64,000 nt of DNA from Patescibacteria group bacterium (lineage in GTDB: Bacteria > Patescibacteriota > Patescibacteriia > 2-12-FULL-57-11): NCBI GenBank assembly GCA_004297205.1, contig SCUL01000002.1:462647-526646 (forward strand). The letters run 5' to 3'. Under the pieces are notes generated by a model. It had not been told where the DNA came from and ran no database searches. It saw only the letters and a program-made list of their open reading frames with translations. Both the position numbers and the translations under genes were made by a program. Positions 4,868-57,926 of this stretch are shown here, one piece after another (within the stretch, counting starts at the first letter, position 1; each line of letters begins with the position of its first letter).

Positions 4868-5926
4868 TCAGGCGCGTTCGCGGGGACGGGTGACCAGGGT
4901 CTGCGCGTCCTTGGCGTCGACGAGTCCTTCGGCCACGAGCCGCTTGGCGTCCTGGGCCAACGTGTACATGCCGTACTTGCCGGAGGTCTGCAGCACCGTG
5001 TCTATCTGCGCGGACTTGCCTTCGCGGATCAAGTTGGAAATGGCGGACGTATTGAACAGGACTTCGCGCACGGCGATGCGGCCGCCGCCCCGCTTCGGCA
5101 ACAGCTGCTGCGTGACGACGGCGCGCAGCACCGAGGCCAGCTGCACGCGGATCTGATTCTGCTGGTGCGGCGGGAAGGCGTCGATGATGCGTTCGATCGT
5201 CGTGGCCGCGCTGTAGGTGTGGAGTGTGGCAAAGACGAGGTGTCCGGTTTCCGCCAGGGTCAGCGTCGTGGCGATCGTTTCCAAATCACGCATTTCGCCG
5301 ATCATGACGACGTCCGGATCCTGGCGCAGGATGTGTTTCAGGCCTTCGGCGAAGCTGCGCATGTCTTCCCCGAGCTGGCGCTGACGGATCAACGCTTTGC
5401 CTTGCGGGAAGAGGAACTCGACCGGGTCCTCGAGGGTCACGATGTTGGCCGCGACGCGCTCGTTGACGAGGTTGAGGAGCGTGGCCAGCGTCGTCGATTT
5501 GCCGGAGCCGGTCGGACCGGTCACGAGAATGAGCCCGTGCGGCAGCGTGGTGAGATCGGCCACGGCTTGCGGCAAGGACAGGTCGGCGACGCTCGGAATC
5601 TTCACCGGCACGAGACGCGCGGCCATGCCGACGTTGTTCTTTTCCTGGTGGACGTTGATGCGGAAACGCGCCCCGCCCGTGGTGTAGGCGGCATCGAGCT
5701 CCAAGTTCTGTTCGAAGCGCGCGATCTGCTCCTTCGTGAGCACGCCGTACACGAGTTCCCTGACCTGCTTTGCGGTGAGCGGCACCCCTCCTCCGACCGG
5801 CACGAGCGCGCCGTCGATGCGCAACGTCGGCGGCCGACCGACCACAAGGTGCAGGTCCGAGGCCTTGGCGGTCACGGCGGCGGAGAACAGCGCGTCCATG
5901 ACATTGTTGACGACGGGTGCGGGCAT
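4868..5926 (-). CDS. pilT: Type IV pilus retraction ATPase PilT.
   Basis: Walker A GPTGSGKSTT; PilT-family motifs LRQDPDVVMIGEMRD, AETGHLVFATLHT, GGGRIAVREVL. An alternative start at M10 (5899) matches the PilT N-terminus MDALFS. Confidence 0.9.
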   Translation of the reverse strand: MPAPVVNNVMDALFSAAVTAKASDLHLVVGRPPTLRIDGALVPVGGGVPLTAKQVRELVYGVLTKEQIARFEQNLELDAAYTTGGARFRINVHQEKNNVGMAARLVPVKIPSVADLSLPQAVADLTTLPHGLILVTGPTGSGKSTTLATLLNLVNERVAANIVTLEDPVEFLFPQGKALIRQRQLGEDMRSFAEGLKHILRQDPDVVMIGEMRDLETIATTLTLAETGHLVFATLHTYSAATTIERIIDAFPPHQQNQIRVQLASVLRAVVTQQLLPKRGGGRIAVREVLFNTSAISNLIREGKSAQIDTVLQTSGKYGMYTLAQDAKRLVAEGLVDAKDAQTLVTRPRERA

Positions 5927-47179: not shown

Positions 47180-47370
47180 TACGGCCACAAAACAAGAGCC
47201 TTTTCGGGCTCTTTGTGTGGTCATGAACAACTGAAGACCATTGCCCAATAGTCAGCCATGGAGGCATCGTGCTTTTCATGGTTGCAACGTCTGTCCGAAG
47301 AGTCGCAAGACTCTTCAATTCAACAGATCTCCAAATAGAGCTATCAGCTCTCGAAACCGGCTTGCCGGTT

Positions 47371-48866
<1,496 letters not shown>

Positions 48867-49140
48867 CTAGGGAGTGTTATTCTACTCTTCGGGGTATGAA
48901 TCATTTCCGTCGAACTCGCTGCGCAGTGCAGCGGGTATAGGACGTTGCAACCATAAAGGGCATGAACAAACGCCGGCCGAAAGGCCGGCGTTTTGATTGG
49001 CCAAGGCCCTTGCCAGGAATCGCCTTTTCCCCTACAGTATCCGGGCAAAACAGACATACGGCGTGGATCGTCGCTTCGCTCCGATGCACGCCCGTCGTCC
49101 GTTCGGCTTCCGAAAGCGAGCTTTCGAAGCCTCACTCCCT

Positions 49141-49217
49141 AGGGCGTGTAGCTCAGTTGGTTAGAGCGTTACACTGATAATGTAAAGGTCGATGGTTCGA
49201 CTCCATCCACGCCCACC
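49141..49217 (+). tRNA. tRNA-Ile (anticodon GAU) in the 16S-downstream spacer; CCA encoded.
   Basis: GGGCGTGTAGCTCAGTTGGTTAGAGCG, anticodon loop CTGATAA, T-arm GGTTCGACTCC, 3' end CACGCCCACCA. Followed by the hairpin atcccccg-taaata-cgggggat (49218-49245). Confidence 0.85.
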
Positions 49218-52668: not shown

Positions 52669-52780
52669 GAATCGTGCATGGAGGAAATTTGTGATGAGAT
52701 CGCCGATTTCCTCGCAGCACATCACATAACGCGCCACGCATCTGACGTGCGTACCGCGCACACGGAAGGAGGTGACCGAC

Positions 52781-52867
52781 ATGGCTAAACGGAAGAAGGC
52801 AGCGAAGCGGAAGCCGGCCAAGCGGCCCGCCAAGCGGAAGAAGGCGACCAAGAAGCGCCGCGCCTAA
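52781..52867 (+). CDS. Tiny Lys/Arg-rich peptide (28 aa: MAKRKKAAKRKPAKRPAKRKKATKKRRA).
   Basis: Strong SD GGAGGTGA 5 nt before the ATG; an intrinsic terminator immediately follows. Not in the ORF track (below 60 aa). Confidence 0.4.
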   Translation: MAKRKKAAKRKPAKRPAKRKKATKKRRA

Positions 52868-52871
52868 TGAC

Positions 52872-52910
52872 GCTCAAAAATCGCTCCCTTACAGGAGCGA
52901 TTTTTGTTTT
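52872..52910. terminator. Bidirectional terminator (small peptide gene on +, endoQ-like on -).
   Basis: aaatcgctcc-cttaca-ggagcgattt followed by TTGTTTTG. Confidence 0.5.
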
Positions 52911-54132
52911 GCTTCCGTTTCGTCTTCTTTGAAAATCCGCACCGTGCCGTATTGTCCGTCGAAGCCGCCGAGCACCGTGAGTTCTGCCGCGCGTACCCTG
53001 CGTATCGCTTCAGCCACGCGTTGCCCGCCTTCCGCGGCGATCTGCGCCAGCGGAACATCCAAAAGAACGGCAAATTCACTACCGACGCGGTCGGTCAGCC
53101 GCTGGTACACCTGCTGCACTTTTTTCGAAGCCGGGCCGACATCCAGAGCTTCGCCGATGACTTGTTCGAGCGGCACGATGCTGCGAAACGGCACGGCATC
53201 CGGGGGCTTTCCGCCGTCCGGCCGGTCGGCCAGCGCCGCGACGCGGGCAAGGACGCCGACCGTGACCTGCTTGCCGCAAGCCGGACAGATCCCTTTCCGC
53301 TTGGCCGTCTCTTCCGGCTTCATGCGAACGCCGCACAGACGATGACCGTCCAAATGATACTTCCCCTCTTCCGGAAAGAATTCGATCGTCTCCACCAGCG
53401 CTTTCTTGTCGCGGCCGGCGATGGCCGCGTACAGCGCGGCGTAGGTGCGCTCCGGCAGATCAAACACGTCGGCTTCACGGCCGAGGTTGCGCAGCGAGTG
53501 CGCATCGGAGTGCGAGAGCAGCAGCACGCCGTCCAGTTGCGAGAGGCGCCAGTTCATGGCCGGGTCCGAAGAGAGGCCGGTCTCGATGGCATGGATGTGT
53601 TTGGCGTCGTCGCCGAAACACTCGGTGATGCTGTCGAAACCGGACTCGGAACCGAAGATGGCGAACCACGGCGTCCAGGCGTGCGCGGGAATCAGCAGCG
53701 TGCGCGGATCGGCTTCCTGGATGAGGTGCAGGAGATCGACCGAATCCATGCCGAGGATCGGCCGCCCGTCGGCTTTCAAGTTCTTCCCCAGTTTTTCCAG
53801 AGCGGCGCGGATCTTGTGGACCGCGGCGAAATCCGGCGCAAGAAGCACGAGGTGGACGCGCCGTACTTTGCCGCCCCGCTTGTAGATGCAGGCGACTTCA
53901 CTCGACAGCACGAAGCGCGCGCCGGGCTCCGCCGGATACGCATAGGTGCCAGGCGCGACTTCCACGAGGTCGCGCTCGAGTTCCGCGATCCAGGCCGGAT
54001 GCGTGAAGTCGCCGCTGCCGAGCAGATCGATCCCCTTGCGCCGGGCCCATTGCGCCAGGTTCGGCACGGTGAGTTCCTGGCTGCAGGCGCGGGAAAACCG
54101 CGAATGGATATGGAGGTCGGTGATGGTGCGCA
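52889..54132 (-). CDS. PHP-domain endonuclease, EndoQ-like (PHP N-domain plus C-terminal Zn-finger-like region).
   Basis: Real frame is the tail of track ORF 52889..55210, with start at ATG 54132 (MRTITDLHIHSRFSRACS..GIDLLGSGDFTHPAWI, like the EndoQ N-terminus; later CPACGK). TATACT at about -13..-8 from the ATG suggests a leaderless transcript. Confidence 0.55.
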
Positions 54133-54159
54133 TGCCGGGCAGTATAAAGGAACGTCGGG

Positions 54160-54194
54160 ATAAAAAAAGTGGGCAGCGACGGTGAGTCGCTGCC
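54160..54194 (-). terminator. Intrinsic terminator between rsr and the endoQ-like gene.
   Basis: Minus strand: gggcagcgac-tcacc-gtcgctgccc followed by ACTTTTTTTA. Confidence 0.5.
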
Positions 54195-54219: not shown

Positions 54220-55944
54220 CTAGGCCGCCTCGGGATCGTCCTCGGCGGAGGACGGCGCCCGCCCGGTCTCCCACCGGGCAATCCGCGCGACCGCCTGGGT
54301 TCCGTCCTCCTCGTACGAGGGGATGAACTCCAGGAGCCGCTCGGACCAGCCGGCAAGGAGCGCGACGCGCGGCTCGTCGCTTGGGAACTGCGCGGTGCCG
54401 TATCCGGCCAGGTCCACGGAGTACAGGAAGACTCCGGGGTTCACCTGGCTGCGGTACCGCCGCAGCTCCTCGGCAAGCGACGCGTCCCGGACGGACTCGT
54501 GCCACATTCCGTGCGCGGCCTGGGCCGAGTCGTAGCACTGCATGTCCGAGAAGAGGATGATCCGGTCGACCCGGGTCTTCGTCTCGCGCAGGTGCCGGAC
54601 GGCGAGGTACGCGTTCGTGGCGTGGCCCACGTCGGTGTTCGCCAGGCGCGCCATGTTGGTGATGATCGAATCCTTGGAAAGGACCGGCACCACCTTGTGA
54701 CTCTCGCCGAACACCGAGCACACCGCCTGGTCGCACATCGTGTGGGCGATGGCGCCGAGGAGGTTGGCCACGTCGCGCAGCGCGACCGTCGAGCGCTCGG
54801 AGACCGGGGACTGCATCGAGCCCGAGTTGTCCGCGGTGATGAACGTGCGCCCCGCGAGTCGGGGCAGATTCACCACCGAAGCCTCGAGCGCCGCAAGCAG
54901 CGCCTCCATGACCTCCGTCCGCCGCGGGTGCGACGCGATGCGCTCGTCGAGGGCCCGCCCCGAGATGCCGCACCACTCGCCCGCCACGGACGGGTCGAGC
55001 ACCCGGTACGCCGAGTAGAACCGGAACGGCAGCTGCCGGCTCCGCCGCACGTGCTCGGGGTTCCGGAGCATCGCGATCACGCGGTCGAGCGCCTCGTCGG
55101 CGCCGTTGCGCATGAGGTTCGCGATGTTCCGCATCCCGGCCATGAACGGCAGGCGCAGTGCGTTCCAGGTCTCGGCCTTCGCCCCGAAGTGGGAGATGAG
55201 GACCTCCCACGTGGCGTCGGCCGCGGCGGCGAGCGCGCGCGCCTCGTCGTCGAACGCCTGCTTGCGCAGCAGGGCCGACTTGGCCGCGAGCTTCGGCAGG
55301 AGCGCCGCGTCGAGCTCGCCCTTCACCAGGTACCGGTAGAGCGCGGAACGCTCCGGTGTGCCGGGCTTGGGGCGGACGATGCGCAGCACGTCGCGGAGCT
55401 TCACGGCCCGGTCGCGGTCGTACTTGGCGAAGTGGTACTCGCCGAAGTTCCCGAGCGCGTCCGCAAGCCCGCGGGTGAGGCAGTTCGGGAAGGCGTGCTC
55501 CCCGCCGCGCTCACCGTGCGAGCCGATCGGCCCGTGCGCCCTCGTCCACGCCGCGATGACCTCGGCCGGCTCGTCCGCGCGGCGGACGATCTCCGGGGTC
55601 CAGCGCCGGACGAACGGCTTGCAGGCCGGGATGGACGCGGCCATGGCGAGCACCACGATCGGGGTCGACCGGATGTGCATCACCTGGCGCGTGTAGGCCG
55701 CGAGCCGGAGCACGAACTCCGGATCCACCGCGGCCGCGGCGGCAACGTCGGCGAGGAGCTCCACATCCGACGTCTGTCCGTCGGCGTAGAACTTCGGCTC
55801 GCCGGCGAGCGACGCGCACACCCGCGTGTACAGCCGGGTCCGCGCATCCGAGGTGAAGGCGAGGCCGCCCCCGTGGTTGCGCGTGGCATCGGCGCGGGAG
55901 ACGACCTGCTCACGGATCGACGGCGAACGAAGATTCTGACGCAT
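54220..55944 (-). CDS. rsr: Ro60 ortholog Rsr (TROVE domain plus C-terminal vWA).
   Basis: TROVE region (PKFYADGQTSDVELLADVAAAAAVDPEFVLRLAAYTRQVMHIRS) and vWA MIDAS motif ITADNSGSMQ. Start ATG 55944 has SD GGAGG 5 nt upstream; the track start is GTG 55956. Confidence 0.8.
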   Translation of the reverse strand: MRQNLRSPSIREQVVSRADATRNHGGGLAFTSDARTRLYTRVCASLAGEPKFYADGQTSDVELLADVAAAAAVDPEFVLRLAAYTRQVMHIRSTPIVVLAMAASIPACKPFVRRWTPEIVRRADEPAEVIAAWTRAHGPIGSHGERGGEHAFPNCLTRGLADALGNFGEYHFAKYDRDRAVKLRDVLRIVRPKPGTPERSALYRYLVKGELDAALLPKLAAKSALLRKQAFDDEARALAAAADATWEVLISHFGAKAETWNALRLPFMAGMRNIANLMRNGADEALDRVIAMLRNPEHVRRSRQLPFRFYSAYRVLDPSVAGEWCGISGRALDERIASHPRRTEVMEALLAALEASVVNLPRLAGRTFITADNSGSMQSPVSERSTVALRDVANLLGAIAHTMCDQAVCSVFGESHKVVPVLSKDSIITNMARLANTDVGHATNAYLAVRHLRETKTRVDRIILFSDMQCYDSAQAAHGMWHESVRDASLAEELRRYRSQVNPGVFLYSVDLAGYGTAQFPSDEPRVALLAGWSERLLEFIPSYEEDGTQAVARIARWETGRAPSSAEDDPEAA

Positions 55945-56774
55945 GGGATCCTCCACCTGCCCCGCTCAGCGGGACGGAACGTTGTTATGTGCGAGTTGTG
56001 AAAGAAGAGGCCCGGGACGCGTGTCGTCGCCGGGCCATGAAGCTTGCGTATCTGGGGAGAAGAAGCGGAATCGGATGCTTGTCACCGCGCCGTACCGCGA
56101 TGGCATCCACGACGTCCTTTCGGACGCCGCGGGAGTGGAACTTTCGTTCCCCAGGGACGTGACCCCGAACGGGTCCGTCATCCCTGGTGCCGGCATCAAC
56201 CCTCACACGGAGGTCCGCCGACATGATGTTCAACCGACTGTCGAGGCCGGTCGACCATTCCCAATTGGAGATGTTCTTTAGAAGTAACCGGTTCCTACGC
56301 TGCCCCAGACGCGCAACTTGTGAAGGTTCTCGAGGAAGAAACGACGAGGGTCTTGTATGCCACTTGGAAAGAAGTATCCCTCGTCTACACCGCCGAGCGC
56401 CTTCGTCGCAGGCCGGAACCGAGCGGTTCCGGACTTGGACGAAGGGCCGGGCGGCCCCTTCCCCACGGTCCACACGCGGAGAGCGGTTTCCGCGCTCCAG
56501 AGGAGTGCAGTCCCCGCGTACCCTGGACAAGCATCGACAGGTCCGGTGCGGTCCGTTCGATCCGACGACAGTGATCTATCGCCAGCTCGATGCACCCGTT
56601 CTATCACAGGATGAAAACTTTGTCAAGTCCTTAACTACTGAGAGTCTAATTTACTACACAACAGAGCCAAATTATAACACAATAAAGTATAACGATATAT
56701 CCTACAGACGAATGAGCGGCGACAACGCAAGTGTCGCCGCGCCCTTGACGATCCACCGGGGTCGTGCTAGGTTC

Positions 56775-57058
56775 CCGCTACCGATCGGAGCGCATGCGTG
56801 CTCCATCGCCCCGTACAGGAGGCGGGGAAACATGTTCAGCGGAGGCTAGCGTCGGTTTTGCCGCAAACGTCATGGACCTCGGTTCGAGCTGGAGTACAGC
56901 AGCAGTTCGCGCAGGACACCACTTTCGAGGTTTCTGCCCGAGCAGATGGAGATCGCAAGAGCGGTCCCTTCCCGAAGGACCATCGCAAGGAGGCCACCAT
57001 GTCGAGCGGCGGCTGATACCGACCCCCGGGCGCGCAAGCGACCGGGGTCATTTTTTAC
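56775..57058 (+). ncRNA. Candidate structured ncRNA (Y-RNA-like?) in the ~1.1 kb noncoding region next to rsr, ending at an intrinsic terminator.
   Basis: AT-rich (~30% GC) stretch 56600-56700, then TTGACG-17nt-TAGGTT (56744-56772). Hairpins ggagcgc-atgc-gtgctcc and ccccg-tacaggagg-cgggg. T-loop-like GGTTCGAGC (56884) and, upstream, GGTCCGTTCGATCC (56555). Two SD-preceded pentapeptide mini-ORFs. No convincing protein ORF. Confidence 0.3.
57017..57058 (+). terminator. Plus-strand intrinsic terminator closing the noncoding region.
   Basis: gacccccgg-gcgcgcaagcga-ccggggtc (bulged C) followed by ATTTTTTAC; overlaps the stop of the minus-strand TrmB-like gene. Confidence 0.5.
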
Positions 57059-57801
57059 TTGAACGTCGGAAAGCCACCGGCACCACGCCACGCCAGATCG
57101 AACAGGGCGCGCAGCGTCTGGGCCGCGATCGCGCTGTCGATCACTACCCCGATGATCGCTCCCTTGAACGTCACGATGGCGACCTTATCGCCGTAGATGA
57201 CCAAGTCTCCGTAAAATTCGAAATCTTTGGGCGGCAGGACACGCACGTCCACGCCGGGTCGCGCCCGCTGCACGTTGCCGAGCAACAAGGCGCGGCCGGG
57301 TGTTTTGCGTTTGGAAAGGACGTCCTGAATCGCGCGCAACTCCGGATCGGAGAAAATCTCTTTGACTGCGTCAATATTGGCCATTTCGTCGACCGTGGCC
57401 GGTTTCGTGGCCGCGATATCCTCGAGAATGGTCCGCAAACCCTCCACGCCCTCAAAAAATTTCACGCCGGGACGCTCGCCTTTCTGCAGCAGCCGCAGAT
57501 CGTTCAGCACCGACGCGATCTCGCGGACCTTGCTTTGCATCTTCTTTGATTCCTCCTCCACGAAATGAAGCAGCCGATCCGGCGGTTCCGCGGAAAAGAG
57601 CTTGCGCTTGCCGCGGATGTAGGAACTCATGAGCCCTTTCTGGGAAAGCCCGGTGATCGCCGCATAGGTGGATGGCCGGGAAAAACCCGCTTTCTTGGCA
57701 ACGATCTGTACCGGAGATGGGCCGAGCTCCAAACTCGCGATGTAGACGCGCGATTCGCTGTCGTTGAAACCGAGGGATTTGAGCAGGTCTGCGTAATCCA
57801 T
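57055..57801 (-). CDS. TrmB-family transcriptional regulator.
   Basis: N-terminal TrmB HTH MDYADLLKSLGFNDSESRVYIASLELGPSPVQIVAKKAGFSRPSTYAAITGL. Start taken at ATG 57801 rather than the track start. Confidence 0.65.
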   Translation of the reverse strand: MDYADLLKSLGFNDSESRVYIASLELGPSPVQIVAKKAGFSRPSTYAAITGLSQKGLMSSYIRGKRKLFSAEPPDRLLHFVEEESKKMQSKVREIASVLNDLRLLQKGERPGVKFFEGVEGLRTILEDIAATKPATVDEMANIDAVKEIFSDPELRAIQDVLSKRKTPGRALLLGNVQRARPGVDVRVLPPKDFEFYGDLVIYGDKVAIVTFKGAIIGVVIDSAIAAQTLRALFDLAWRGAGGFPTFK

Positions 57802-57926
57802 ACCAACGCATTCTACCACACGACGATGCTTTTTTGTCGCCCAAGGGTTGACAAAAACAGGCCGATGTGATAGCCTCGCGCGTTCGTCCCCGGCCTGCTG
57901 TTCAATCCCGGGGGCGACGGAGGCAA

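What the first reader, a model, noticed from the sequence alone, without database searches (positions are those of the whole stretch)
56817..57016. Two near-duplicate SD-preceded pentapeptide mini-ORFs (MFSGG, MSSGG) inside the rsr-adjacent noncoding region
AGGAGG-9nt-ATGTTCAGCGGAGGCTAG (56832-56849) and AAGGAGG-5nt-ATGTCGAGCGGCGGCTGA (56999-57016) are 13/18 identical in their coding parts. They lie 165 nt apart, and the second sits just before the terminator. Paired ultra-short ORFs with canonical ribosome-binding sites suggest ribosome-loading/stalling elements or peptide-encoding modules within an ncRNA, or a duplicated regulatory unit. This is not a standard annotation class.
Basis: seen in the sequence. 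Interest (0 to 1): 0.6.

Follow-up and report, generated by a model that had tools for sequence, protein, structure and literature searches.

The report
Conserved small RNA with translated mini-ORFs
The two five-codon reading frames are real, conserved parts of a roughly 277-base RNA gene found in a group of ultra-small bacteria, and their pattern of change shows that ribosomes read them, although what the tiny peptides or the ribosome loading do is still unknown.

Summary
AGGAGG-9nt-ATGTTCAGCGGAGGCTAG (56817-56849) and AAGGAGG-5nt-ATGTCGAGCGGCGGCTGA (56987-57016) are the only SD+ATG+short-ORF elements on either strand of the 64-kb window.

They lie on a predicted + strand transcription unit of its own (about 56780-57056). 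It has a TTGACG/extended -10 promoter and an intrinsic terminator that starts 4 nt after the second stop codon.

It is not a Y RNA. The Y-like RNAs lie on the rsr (-) strand at about 56050-56397, and this RNA is transcribed away from them. It runs convergently into a TrmB-family regulator gene.

All 14 loci with that adjacent gene and a complete spacer (the window plus 13 from Patescibacteria assemblies and metagenome contigs) have the same unit. None of 4 rsr loci without the gene has it.

13 of the 14 carry one or two strong-SD ORFs of 3-6 codons: MGSGS, MGSGR, MGSGG, MGGSGR, MLSGS, MFNGN, MFGG and others. The last stop lies 0-6 nt from the terminator stem.

Variation is codon-like. MGSGR is written two ways that differ at 7 of 18 nt. 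Ser uses six codons from both codon families, and stop codons interchange.

So these are very probably translated mini-ORFs on a dedicated, unannotated small RNA. The closest known analogue in mechanism is the mccA mini-mRNA. Function is inferred only.

The parts
56745..56773 (+). Promoter of the mini-ORF RNA: -35 TTGACG (56745-56750), a 17-nt spacer, then an extended -10 TGc-TAGGTT (56765-56773).
   Evidence: Read. The same layout, TTGACA-N14-TGn-TAnnnT, lies at the same relative position in the homologous loci (for example L002 TTGACAaaagtcaaaatacgTGcTATATT). The simple consensus scan did not flag it, because the window's -10 matches only 3 of 6 positions.
56780..57056 (+). Predicted mini-ORF RNA, about 277 nt. 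The ends are inferred from the promoter and the terminator and have not been mapped.
   Evidence: The + strand folds with z = -3.6 against shuffles; the - strand gives z = -1.5. The terminator's U-run exists only on the + strand. Homologous units are 234-436 nt long.
56782..56808 (+). 5'-terminal hairpin (CGAUCGGAGCGCAUGCGUGCUCCAUCG).
   Evidence: Minimum-free-energy folds. Most homologous RNAs also begin with a 5' hairpin.
56809..56827 (+). Small hairpin CCCCG-UACAGGAGG-CGGGG that presents SD1 (AGGAGG, 56817-56822) in its loop.
   Evidence: The first translation-initiation region is predicted to be more accessible than the terminal one.
56832..56849 (+). Mini-ORF 1: ATG TTC AGC GGA GGC TAG (MFSGG).
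   Evidence: Counterparts in other two-ORF RNAs are MLSGS (L036), MFGSGK (L012), MLGGGK (L011), MGGGSG (L020) and MCGG (L028). Five of the six first ORFs end in TAG and one in TAA.
56850..56888 (+). 5' strand of the predicted long-range helix. It contains GUCGGU, GCCGC, CAUGG and CCUC, which pair with ACCGAC, GCGGC, CCAUG and GAGG of the SD2/ORF2 segment.
   Evidence: MFE and RNAduplex results. Homologous helices have a few compensatory pairs. For the window itself the duplex energy is no better than shuffles (z = -0.5).
56889..56980 (+). Variable structured central domain. Its sequence is not conserved between sub-groups.
56987..56993 (+). SD2, AAGGAGG: 7 nt complementary to the 16S 3' tail ...GGAUCACCUCCUUUCU, with a 5-nt spacer to the ATG.
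56999..57016 (+). Mini-ORF 2 (terminal): ATG TCG AGC GGC GGC TGA (MSSGG).
   Evidence: Terminal ORFs are conserved in 12 other loci. Variation is codon-like.
57021..57056 (+). Intrinsic terminator: stem-loop 57021-57049, then A and T6 (57051-57056). The T-run overlaps the stop codon of the convergent TrmB-family gene.
   Evidence: The distance from stop codon to terminator stem is 0-6 nt in all 13 typical RNAs.
57055..57819 (-). Convergent TrmB-family regulator gene. The public annotation gives 248 aa (P0121). The predicted fold resembles TrmBL2: winged helix, coiled coil and a PLD-like C-terminal domain.
   Evidence: Pfam TrmB E = 1e-10. AlphaFold model pLDDT 93; Foldseek to TrmBL2 (5box) E = 1e-12. 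This gene lies next to the RNA in all 14 loci.
56596..56744 (.). AT-rich divergent control region (31% GC). On the - strand it holds a TTGACA -35 (56621-56626), a 17-nt spacer and TGa-TAGAAC (56598-56606), pointing toward the Y-like RNAs and rsr. An inverted repeat GCGGCGACA/TGTCGCCGC (56716-56740) lies just upstream of the + strand -35.
   Evidence: The box ATATTTGTCAAGT recurs in the homologous loci.
56329..56397 (-). Context: Y-RNA-like module 1 on the rsr strand. It has an outer stem CUCGG/CCUCGAG, conserved internal-loop sequences GGUGUAG and GUUUCUUCC, and an inner stem GACGAGGG/CCCUCGUC.
   Evidence: Both stems co-vary across about 16 homologous modules (by inspection). In distant loci the same motif starts sub-threshold Rfam YrlA hits.
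56050..56310 (-). Context: larger Y-RNA-like module 2 on the rsr strand. It is closed by UCUGGGGC.../...CUUCUUCUCCCCAGA and has a branched interior.
   Evidence: nhmmer finds two homologous copies in L002 (E = 2e-11 and 5e-11). The fold has z = -5.55.
54220..55944 (-). Context: rsr, the Ro60 homologue (TROVE plus vWA domains).
   Evidence: Pfam TROVE E = 1e-29. Translation. The identical protein is deposited as 'TROVE domain-containing protein [Patescibacteria group bacterium]'.

Best explanation
The two mini-ORFs belong to a dedicated small RNA gene, about 277 nt, on the + strand at 56780-57056. It is transcribed from its own strong sigma-70-type promoter and ends at an intrinsic terminator that it shares, tail to tail, with a TrmB-family regulator gene.

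**Shown by comparison.** The unit is conserved in a clade of Patescibacteria wherever that regulator gene is adjacent. Its most conserved part is one or two complete translation-initiation regions (an SD with 5-10 nt of complementarity to the 16S tail, a 3-9 nt spacer and an ATG), each followed by a 3-6 codon ORF rich in Gly and Ser. These ORFs evolve like coding sequence.

**Inferred.** Ribosomes load on these sites and translate them. Each SD-to-stop unit spans only about 30-35 nt and the last stop lies 0-6 nt from the terminator stem. A ribosome on the terminal ORF should therefore overlap the base of the 3' hairpin. That ribosome must also compete with a long-range helix in which the SD, the AUG and the ORF form the 3' strand.

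The RNA therefore most likely works as a ribosome-gated mini-mRNA of the mccA type. In that model, ribosome binding decides how the 3' end folds, terminates and survives, and repeated rounds of translation give a tiny fMet-x-Ser-Gly-x peptide in quantity. In the two-ORF versions the more accessible first ORF ends at or near the 5' strand of the helix, and its translation may open the second site.

The downstream target is not established. It could be a peptide acting on the TrmB-family regulator, or the RNA and its ribosome occupancy acting on the convergent TrmB gene and so on the divergent Y-RNA/rsr operon.
For: **Coordinates and rarity.** Both units were read directly and are the only two such elements in 128 kb of sequence counted over both strands.

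**Independent unit.** The promoter and terminator were read in the window and in 13 homologous loci. The + strand folds with z = -3.6.

**Conservation.**
- 14 of 14 loci with the adjacent TrmB-family gene have the RNA.
- 0 of 4 rsr loci without that gene have it.

**ORFs.** There are 17 distinct ORFs, all starting with ATG, all with an in-frame stop after 3-6 codons and nearly all with a strong SD.

**Coding signature.**
- Of the codons that differ between the 5-codon ORFs, 60 are synonymous and 62 non-synonymous in frame. The figures are 6/118 in frame +1 and 24/93 in frame +2.
- MGSGR is ATGGGCAGTGGTCGGTAG in L016 and ATGGGTTCCGGACGCTAA in L032. These differ at 7 nt, and every difference is synonymous or keeps the stop.
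- At codon 3 of the 5-codon ORFs, Ser is written AGC, AGT, TCA, TCT or TCC; TCG also occurs at other positions.
- Codon 4 is always GGN, with A, C or T in the third position.

**Strongest conservation.** The ORF block is the longest invariant run in an alignment whose mean column identity is 71%.

**Stop next to the terminator.** The distance is 0-6 nt in 13 of 13 typical RNAs.

**Long-range helix.** It is predicted in every sub-group and has compensatory pairs in group A. The terminal initiation region is predicted to be less accessible than the first.

**Precedent.** For the 7-codon mccA ORF, ribosome binding induces termination at the adjacent terminator and makes the short RNA very stable, and the ORF is translated reiteratively (PMC4231749, PMC6495379).
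Against: - There is no expression, ribosome-profiling or peptide evidence. Both transcript ends are predicted, not mapped.
- The peptides are extremely short, low in complexity and variable in length (3-6 residues). One low-GC relative (L029) has MPD and (V/M)ND instead, about 200 nt from its terminator.
- Pairing of the SD/ORF strand with upstream sequence is no stronger than with shuffled upstream sequence (z from -2.2 to +1.3), and covariation rests on few sequences.
- The idea that the first ORF opens the second site fits the window, L020 and L036. In L011, L012 and L028 the predicted partner strand lies 38-74 nt after the first stop.
- Unlike mccA, there is no co-directional downstream gene and no modifying enzyme nearby.
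- A GGN-periodic RNA motif could mimic part of the codon signal, although it would not explain the Ser position.
Confidence: 0.55

Rival explanations
1. Peptide signal. The RNA is simply a very small mRNA, and the 4-6-residue peptide (consensus M-x-S-G-x) is the active product. For example, it could be an intracellular ligand of the adjacent TrmB-family regulator and report translation capacity to the promoters of the Y-RNA/rsr operon.
For: - Conservation is at the amino-acid level.
- The RNA is strictly linked to the regulator gene: 14 of 14 loci with it against 0 of 4 without.
- The two peptides on one RNA resemble each other and differ between lineages: MFSGG/MSSGG, MCGG/MFGG, MPD/MND.
- TrmB homologues in loci without rsr also have a convergent small RNA with a tiny SD-led ORF: L033 MMN, L034 MGKHGSAH.
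Against: - Length and sequence vary (MGGG, MFGG, MGGSGR).
- I know of no precedent for an unprocessed 4-6-residue cytosolic peptide acting as a ligand.
- The regulator's C-terminal domain has a PLD-like, TrmBL2-type fold with no known peptide site.
- This reading does not explain why the stop codon abuts the terminator or why the site is embedded in a helix.
Confidence: 0.2
2. Leader-peptide-type attenuator. Ribosome occupancy of the terminal ORF controls read-through of the terminator. Read-through transcription runs antisense into the convergent TrmB gene and lowers its expression.
For: - The stop-to-stem distance is 0-6 nt.
- The RNA's 3' end lies within -2 to 29 nt of the TrmB stop codon in 8 of 12 loci.
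- The ORFs are rich in Gly and Ser codons, as regulatory leader peptides are rich in the codons they sense.
Against: - In L011, L012 and L028 the spacer is 58-218 nt. In L011 and L028 an additional hairpin followed by a U-run (read in the TrmB direction) lies between the RNA and the TrmB stop codon.
- In L029 the ORFs are about 200 nt from the terminator.
- No alternative antiterminator structure was identified.
- The Patescibacteria in question are not known to regulate Gly or Ser supply in this way (my own knowledge).
Confidence: 0.12
3. Untranslated regulatory RNA. The GGAGG and G-rich segments are binding sites or pairing strands, and the ORFs are incidental. The segments could sponge 30S subunits or a GGA-binding protein, or act as internal partners that mask C-rich CCUCC 'seed' regions.
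For: - Several GGAGG copies occur per RNA, including inside the ORFs and just after the stop codons.
- C-rich linkers resembling the anti-SD lie upstream, such as CACCCACCUCUC.
- The SD/ORF strand is predicted to be paired.
Against: - It does not explain the invariant ATG at optimal spacing, or an in-frame stop in 17 of 17 ORFs that changes among TGA, TAG and TAA.
- It does not explain Ser being encoded by both codon families, or the excess of synonymous changes only in frame.
Confidence: 0.1
4. It is a Y RNA, the Ro60/Rsr partner, or part of one. Its long closing stem would be the Rsr-binding stem.
For: It lies about 840 nt from the rsr start codon. Its ends are predicted to pair into a long irregular stem around a large interior.
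Against: - It is on the strand opposite rsr.
- It gives no Rfam YrlA or Y_RNA hit even at E <= 10, and ARAGORN finds nothing tRNA-like.
- The locus already has Y-like modules on the rsr strand, carrying the conserved motif that marks YrlA hits in distant loci.
- The RNA is absent from 4 rsr loci that keep those modules.
Confidence: 0.02
5. The mini-ORFs are the C-terminal ends of longer protein-coding genes: the 72-codon frame 56798-57016 and the 220-codon frame 56187-56849.
For: Both longer frames are open in the window.
Against: - The longer frames are not conserved. L011 has a stop 4 codons upstream, and several loci have no upstream in-frame start.
- The 220-codon frame would run across the AT-rich promoter region and the Y-like RNAs.
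- Long spurious ORFs are abundant in this high-GC sequence.
Confidence: 0.01

Closest known systems
mccA mini-mRNA of the microcin C operon (E. coli, H. pylori)
   Same: Both have a very short ORF (7 codons in mccA) with a very efficient SD, followed by an intrinsic terminator. In mccA, ribosome binding to the ORF induces termination and makes the short RNA abundant and very stable, upstream RNA masks the terminator, and the ribosome translates reiteratively without leaving the RNA (PMC4231749, PMC6495379). The SD-ORF-terminator layout, the strong promoter and the upstream strand pairing with the SD/ORF segment are matched here.
   Different: There is no sequence homology. The ORFs here have 3-6 codons and do not end in Asn. 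No MccB-type adenylyltransferase or any co-directional downstream gene is present; the next gene is convergent. Many of these RNAs carry two ORFs. Ribosome dependence has not been tested here.
Leader-peptide attenuators and translation-attenuation leaders (trpL, hisL; ermC and cat leaders)
   Same: Both use a short SD-led ORF whose translation remodels nearby RNA structure. In both, a first ORF can unmask a second SD, and codon content is biased. This comparison rests on my own knowledge of these systems.
   Different: Those leaders regulate a downstream gene on the same transcript. Here the second SD drives only another mini-ORF and the transcript then ends. No terminator/antiterminator alternative was found.
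Regulatory minigenes (phage lambda bar; the axe-txe minigene, PMC8708949; the LEE1 leader minigene, PMC3262186)
   Same: These are 2-6 codon ORFs with an SD whose translation, rather than the peptide, has the regulatory effect or sequesters tRNA as peptidyl-tRNA (titles and abstracts; lambda bar from my own knowledge).
   Different: Those minigenes sit inside mRNAs or operons and are not reported as conserved at the amino-acid level. Here the mini-ORFs are the conserved core of a stand-alone RNA.
Bacterial Y RNAs (YrlA/YrlB, Rfam RF02553)
   Same: Both lie in the rsr neighbourhood, within the 4 kb used to define YrlA candidates (PMC4201824). Both are structured RNAs with a long closing stem.
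   Different: This RNA is on the opposite strand, lacks the GNCGAA-type motif and the T/D-arm mimicry, and gives no covariance-model hit. The real Y-like modules of this locus are on the rsr strand.
Dual-function sRNAs (SgrS/SgrT, RNAIII/hld, SR1/SR1P)
   Same: These are small regulatory RNAs that also carry a translated small ORF (my own knowledge).
   Different: Their peptides are 26-43 residues or longer. No base-pairing target is known for this RNA, and its ORFs are an order of magnitude shorter.

Membership tests
Bacterial Y RNA / YrlA (RF02553) | Encoded on the same strand as rsr, within about 4 kb (PMC4201824). | tested here: not met
   The RNA is on the + strand and rsr on the - strand. 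The distance criterion is met; the strand criterion is not.
Bacterial Y RNA / YrlA (RF02553) | Match to the YrlA covariance model, with tRNA-like T and D arms. | tested here: not met
   No hit at E <= 10 in 55900-57120. No hit at gathering score in 13 homologous loci. ARAGORN finds nothing. As a positive control, distant loci L022-L024 give YrlA hits on the rsr strand.
Bacterial Y RNA / YrlA (RF02553) | Binds Rsr/Ro60. | not testable with these tools
   This needs immunoprecipitation or in vitro binding.
mccA-type peptide-precursor mini-mRNA | Very short SD-led ORF followed directly by an intrinsic terminator on an abundant short transcript. | tested here: met
   The layout is present in 13 of 13 typical RNAs, with a stop-to-stem distance of 0-6 nt. 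Abundance was not tested.
mccA-type peptide-precursor mini-mRNA | Peptide of 7 residues ending in Asn, with a MccB adenylyltransferase gene downstream. | tested here: not met
   The peptides have 3-6 residues and end in G, S, R, K or N. The next gene is a convergent TrmB-family regulator, and flanking genes vary between loci.
mccA-type peptide-precursor mini-mRNA | Ribosome binding induces termination and stabilises the RNA. | not testable with these tools
   This needs in vitro transcription with ribosomes and RNA half-life measurements.
Leader-peptide transcription attenuator | Short ORF upstream of a terminator, with a mutually exclusive antiterminator structure. | tested here: inconclusive
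   The ORF and terminator are present. A competing long-range helix involving the ORF is predicted, but no structure competing with the terminator was identified.
Leader-peptide transcription attenuator | Regulated structural gene(s) downstream on the same strand. | tested here: not met
   The next gene is convergent in all 14 loci.
Type I toxin mRNA | Hydrophobic peptide of about 20-60 residues, with an antisense RNA partner. | tested here: not met
   The peptides have 3-6 residues, mostly Gly and Ser.
tmRNA | tRNA-like domain plus a tag reading frame without an SD or start codon. | tested here: not met
   Neither Rfam nor ARAGORN gives a hit. The ORFs have an SD and an ATG. A normal tmRNA is found elsewhere in a related contig (L014).

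The most novel reading that the evidence does not exclude
The TrmB-linked mini-ORF RNA is a sensor of translation integrity. Because it depends on very long SD:anti-SD pairing and on Gly and Ser tRNAs, ribosome occupancy of its tiny ORFs, or the steady supply of the short-lived peptide, would report whether ribosomes and tRNAs are intact.

Occupancy at the stop codon also melts the base of the 3' hairpin and so sets the fate of the RNA. The signal would be passed through the TrmB-family regulator to the divergent Y-RNA/Ro60 RNA-quality-control operon.

This would be a new kind of regulatory circuit, built on some of the shortest conserved coding sequences known.
Probability: 0.12. Interest if true: 0.85.

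Novelty: new variant of a known kind. Interest (0 to 1): 0.62.

Why it matters
If the reading is right, these 4-6-codon frames are among the shortest reading frames with comparative evidence of selection on the encoded amino acids. They form the conserved core of an unannotated small RNA family in Patescibacteria, a group whose regulation is almost unknown.

The family is absent from Rfam. Gene callers cannot see it, and I found no paper describing it in three literature searches.

Its fixed position is between a TrmB-family regulator gene and, in this clade, a Y-RNA/Ro60 operon. That gives a concrete, testable link between ribosome loading and the control of an RNA-quality-control system.

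It also extends the mccA-type principle, a ribosome-gated mini-mRNA, beyond antibiotic biosynthesis.

Tried and rejected
- **Rfam:** no family covers the RNA. I searched the whole window at gathering score, the intergenic region at E <= 10, and 13 homologous loci.
- **ARAGORN:** no tRNA or tmRNA in 55900-57150.
- **Longer ORF:** rejected.
- **Sequence search with the window's intergenic region (blastn, nhmmer):** it found only the Y-like part, in L002, and never the mini-ORF RNA. The RNA body diverges too fast, so homologues had to be found by synteny and architecture.
- **Consensus scan for promoters and terminators:** it missed both elements in the window, because the -10 is weak and the terminator stem has an internal mismatch. 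I identified them by reading and by comparison.
- **Test for an evolved SD-sequestering helix (RNAduplex against shuffled upstream sequence):** not significant. I therefore treat the helix as predicted, with limited covariation.
- **Y-like repeats on the same strand as the mini-ORF RNA:** my first guess, because GGUUCGAAGUA resembles the vertebrate GGUCCGAAGGUA. Rejected: YrlA hits, T and D arms, stem covariation and folding all place them on the rsr strand.
- **Fold of the TrmB-family protein:** checked for a hint of peptide or RNA binding. It is an ordinary TrmBL2-like architecture, which is uninformative.
- **Multiple alignment of all Y-like units for RNAalifold:** too gappy to give a consensus. 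Covariation was read by eye.
Full report
**1. The observation**

Direct reading confirms both units.

- **Unit 1:** AGGAGG (56817-56822), 9 nt, ATGTTCAGCGGAGGCTAG (56832-56849, MFSGG*).
- **Unit 2:** AAGGAGG (56987-56993), 5 nt, ATGTCGAGCGGCGGCTGA (56999-57016, MSSGG*).

The coding parts share 13 of 18 positions, and the ATGs are 167 nt apart. A GC-rich hairpin followed by T6 (57021-57056) begins 4 nt after the second stop codon.

The pattern GGAGG-N4-10-ATG-(2-6 codons)-stop occurs only twice on both strands of the 64-kb window, and both occurrences are these. Markov simulations expect 1.2 per window, and 0.135 that are Gly/Ser-rich. Two within 200 nt is far from chance.

**2. Where it sits**

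- **rsr.** The 574-aa TROVE/vWA protein (Ro60 homologue) is on the - strand at 54220-55944. The identical protein is deposited from a Patescibacteria MAG on an 856-kb contig.
- **TrmB-family gene.** A regulator gene lies on the - strand at 57055-57819. Its predicted fold is TrmBL2-like: winged helix, coiled coil and a PLD-like domain (pLDDT 93; Foldseek E = 1e-12).
- **Spacer.** The 1.1-kb spacer between the two genes matches no Rfam family, even at E <= 10. ARAGORN finds nothing.

The spacer contains three things.

(a) *Y-like RNAs next to rsr, on the rsr strand.* There are two structured modules, at 56329-56397 and about 56050-56310. Together they fold with z = -5.55.
- They carry a motif that reads GAAGUAWCY-N5-6-CUACRC on the + strand. 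It recurs 1-5 times upstream of rsr in every related locus with enough upstream sequence.
- In distant loci (L022-L024) the motif marks the 5' end of sub-threshold Rfam YrlA hits on the rsr strand (E = 2e-7 to 3e-3), with obvious tRNA-like T and D arms.
- Their two stems co-vary across about 16 modules (by inspection).
- These are the Y-RNA equivalents of the locus. They agree with the published rule that bacterial Y RNAs lie within 4 kb of rsr on the same strand (PMC4201824).

(b) *An AT-rich stretch* (56596-56744, 31% GC). On the - strand it reads TTGACA-17-TGaTAGAAC, pointing toward the Y-like RNAs and rsr.

(c) *The unit that holds the finding, on the + strand.* It has TTGACG (56745-56750), a 17-nt spacer, TGcTAGGTT (56765-56773), a predicted start near A56780, and the terminator at 57021-57056. 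The terminator's T-run overlaps the stop codon of the TrmB-family gene. The + strand of this unit folds with z = -3.6 and the - strand with z = -1.5.

**3. Related loci**

The genome scan, the metagenome scan and the exact-protein look-ups together returned 39 loci. Most were found through Rsr and the rest through the TrmB-family protein.

- In every locus where a TrmB-family gene lies upstream of rsr and the spacer is complete, the same unit is present, convergent with that gene. These loci are L002, L011, L012, L016, L017, L019, L020, L028, L029, L031, L032, L036 and L037 (L038 is a second contig with the identical RNA). Each has a TTGACA/extended -10 promoter, a 234-436-nt RNA and an intrinsic terminator.
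- Genes beyond the TrmB-family gene differ from locus to locus: PRPP synthase, a T2SS ATPase, a radical-SAM enzyme, bactofilin. The conserved cassette is therefore the TrmB-family gene, the RNA, the divergent promoters, the Y-like RNAs and rsr.
- Four rsr loci whose upstream neighbour is something else keep the Y-like modules but lack the RNA. The neighbours are a PBP in L021 and L027, DUF6847 in L015 and a transposase in L030.
- Two more distant TrmB-family homologues, with no rsr within 4.5 kb, also have a convergent promoter-to-terminator RNA with a tiny SD-led ORF. L033 has MMN. L034 has MGKHGSAH, with its stop touching the terminator.

The RNA therefore follows the regulator gene, not rsr as such.

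**4. The mini-ORFs are the conserved core**

The RNA bodies have diverged so far that nhmmer and blastn do not connect the sub-groups. Even so, 13 of the 14 RNAs carry one terminal unit of SD + ATG + 3-6 codons + stop, and six of them carry a second unit further upstream.

| Position | Peptides |
|---|---|
| Terminal ORF | MSSGG (window); MGSGS (L002, L017, L031, L037); MGSGG (L019); MGSGR (L016, L032); MGGSGR (L011, L012); MGGG (L020); MFGG (L028); MFNGN (L036) |
| Upstream ORF | MFSGG (window); MLSGS (L036); MFGSGK (L012); MLGGGK (L011); MGGGSG (L020); MCGG (L028) |

Sources.

- **SDs.** They have 5-10 nt of contiguous complementarity to the 16S tail GGAUCACCUCCUUUCU, with spacers of 3-9 nt. 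The one exception is L012 ORF1, whose GGGAG is interrupted. Real genes in the window use comparably strong SDs, so these are canonical sites rather than oddities.
- **Invariant block.** In the alignment of L002, L017, L031 and L037 (mean column identity 71%), the block CCATGGGAAGCGGAAG.TGA is the longest invariant run.
- **The exception.** The low-GC relative L029 has the same cassette but with MPD and (V/M)ND, and its terminator lies about 200 nt further on.

**5. Evidence for translation**

The variation looks like that of coding sequence.

- Among the nine 5-codon ORFs, codon 4 is always GGN, with A, C or T in third position.
- Codon 3 is Ser in eight of nine, written AGC, AGT, TCA, TCT or TCC, and Asn once. 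This uses both Ser codon families, which no nucleotide-level constraint explains.
- MGSGR is ATGGGCAGTGGTCGGTAG in L016 and ATGGGTTCCGGACGCTAA in L032. These differ at 7 of 18 nt, and every difference is synonymous or keeps the stop.
- L011 and L012 differ at two positions in the terminal ORF, both synonymous.
- Stop codons interchange among TGA, TAG and TAA while staying in frame.
- Over all pairs, differing codons are 60 synonymous to 62 non-synonymous in frame. The figures are 6 to 118 in frame +1 and 24 to 93 in frame +2. The pairs are not phylogenetically independent, but the contrast between frames is large.
- No longer frame is conserved.

I therefore consider translation of these ORFs very likely, although it is not demonstrated.

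**6. Anatomy bearing on mechanism**

- **Stop codon and terminator.** The terminal stop lies 0-6 nt from the first paired base of the terminator hairpin in 13 of 13 typical RNAs. A terminating ribosome covers roughly a dozen nucleotides downstream of its A site (general knowledge), so it should overlap the base of that hairpin.
- **Shared terminator.** The RNA's 3' end lies within -2 to 29 nt of the TrmB-family stop codon in 8 of 12 loci. Several stems have an A-tract/U-tract extension, as bidirectional terminators do.
- **Long-range helix.** In every sub-group the SD, the AUG and the ORF are predicted to form the 3' strand of a long, irregular helix. Its 5' strand lies 100-250 nt upstream and contains anti-SD (CCUCC or CCUCU) and anti-AUG (CCCAU) elements. 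In group A, five pairs of this helix system change on both sides and stay paired, all through L037.
- **Limits of that evidence.** The duplex energy of the SD/ORF strand with its upstream sequence is no better than with shuffled sequence. The helix is plausible but not proven.
- **Accessibility.** The upstream initiation regions are predicted to be more open (unpaired probability 0.49 for the SD and 0.53 for the AUG) than the terminal ones (0.38 and 0.29).
- **Relay idea.** In the window and L020 the first stop directly abuts the 5' strand of the helix. In L036 an anti-SD heptamer lies about 15 nt after the first stop (my reading of the sequence). In L011, L012 and L028 the partner strand lies 38-74 nt away.

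**7. Most likely mechanism**

The best-supported reading is a ribosome-gated mini-mRNA.

*Shown:* a conserved, self-contained promoter-RNA-terminator unit whose core is one or two complete initiation sites with codon-like mini-ORFs, the last of them abutting the terminator.

*Inferred:* ribosomes bind and translate. Binding competes with the long-range helix and overlaps the 3' hairpin. Ribosome occupancy therefore determines 3'-end formation and stability, and the short SD-to-stop distance favours repeated rounds of translation.

This is what has been shown experimentally for the 7-codon mccA ORF. There, upstream RNA masks the terminator, ribosome binding induces termination and makes the short RNA very stable, and translation is reiterative (PMC4231749, PMC6495379).

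The comparison is one of mechanism, not membership. There is no homology, no C-terminal Asn, no MccB gene and no co-directional downstream gene.

The data do not decide the output. It could be the peptide, which amino-acid-level conservation and linkage to a regulator favour. It could instead be the RNA and its ribosome occupancy acting on the convergent regulator gene or the shared control region.

I give 0.55 to the overall statement. Of that, about 0.8 applies to 'translated mini-ORFs on a dedicated small RNA' and about 0.3 to the specific mccA-like gating.

**8. Novelty**

Neither Rfam 15 nor three literature searches turned up a description of this RNA. The general principle of minigenes, leader peptides and mccA is known. 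What is new is the stand-alone, regulator-linked form with 3-6-codon ORFs conserved at the amino-acid level, next to a Y-RNA/Ro60 operon in Patescibacteria. I rate it a new variant of a known kind.

Noticed in passing
window 56050-56397, - strand: Two Y-RNA-like modules lie in the rsr leader: a 69-nt one at 56329-56397 and a branched one of about 260 nt at 56050-56310. They share the conserved sequences GGCAGYGUAG...GGWUACUUC and UCGYUUCUUCUCC, and stems that co-vary. Rfam YrlA does not detect them here, but it hits the same motif in distant loci. L014 has five tandem copies and L002 and L017 have four.
   Followed up: partly
window 56596-56744; the same region in L002, L011, L012, L016, L017, L019, L029, L031, L032, L036, L037: AT-rich divergent promoter region with a conserved box, ATATTTGTCAAGT, which is a -35 TTGACA read toward rsr. 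In several loci an inverted repeat lies just upstream of the RNA's -35: GCGGCGACA/TGTCGCCGC at 56716-56740 in the window, TGTCGCA/TGCGACA in L011, ACAGTGC/GCACTGT in L036. It may be an operator for the TrmB-family protein.
   Followed up: no
L033 about 5290-5660 and L034 about 5265-5510, - strand: TrmB-family homologues (39-44% identity) in loci with no rsr within 4.5 kb also have a convergent promoter-to-terminator small RNA with a tiny SD-led ORF. L033 has GGAGGUGA-6-AUGAUGAACUAA (MMN). L034 has MGKHGSAH, with its stop touching the terminator. The pairing of regulator and RNA may be much wider than the rsr clade.
   Followed up: partly
window 52766-52905, + strand: A 28-codon ORF (52781-52867) encodes a very basic peptide, MAKRKKAAKRKPAKRPAKRKKATKKRRA. 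It is preceded by a 10-nt SD (AAGGAGGTGA) with a 5-nt spacer and followed by a terminator-like hairpin and T-run. It has no Pfam match and is probably a real small protein gene.
   Followed up: no
window 47370-49215: The 16S rRNA gene (47370-48866) is followed by a tRNA (49142-49215), but Rfam reports no 23S or 5S rRNA anywhere in the window, so none follows within the 15 kb downstream of the 16S gene. The rRNA genes appear to be unlinked.
   Followed up: no
window 52892-54133, - strand: A 414-aa gene lies immediately downstream of rsr, after a hairpin and T-run at about 54140-54190. Its N-terminus looks PHP or endonuclease-Q-like by eye (DLHIHS...). Pfam gives only a weak PHP_C hit (E = 0.007).
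   Followed up: no
L029 3197-3612, - strand: This low-GC relative keeps the TrmB/RNA/rsr cassette. Its two SD-led ORFs encode MPD and (V/M)ND, similar to each other but unlike the Gly/Ser peptides elsewhere, and they lie about 200 nt from the terminator. One SD is also followed at 1 nt by ATG-TAA, a start-stop pair.
   Followed up: partly
L030 1817-2761: In one rsr locus (Rsr 68% identical to the window's), a transposase-like gene occupies the place of the TrmB-family gene and the mini-ORF RNA, while the Y-like modules remain. This suggests the regulator/RNA pair can be lost or replaced as a unit.
   Followed up: no
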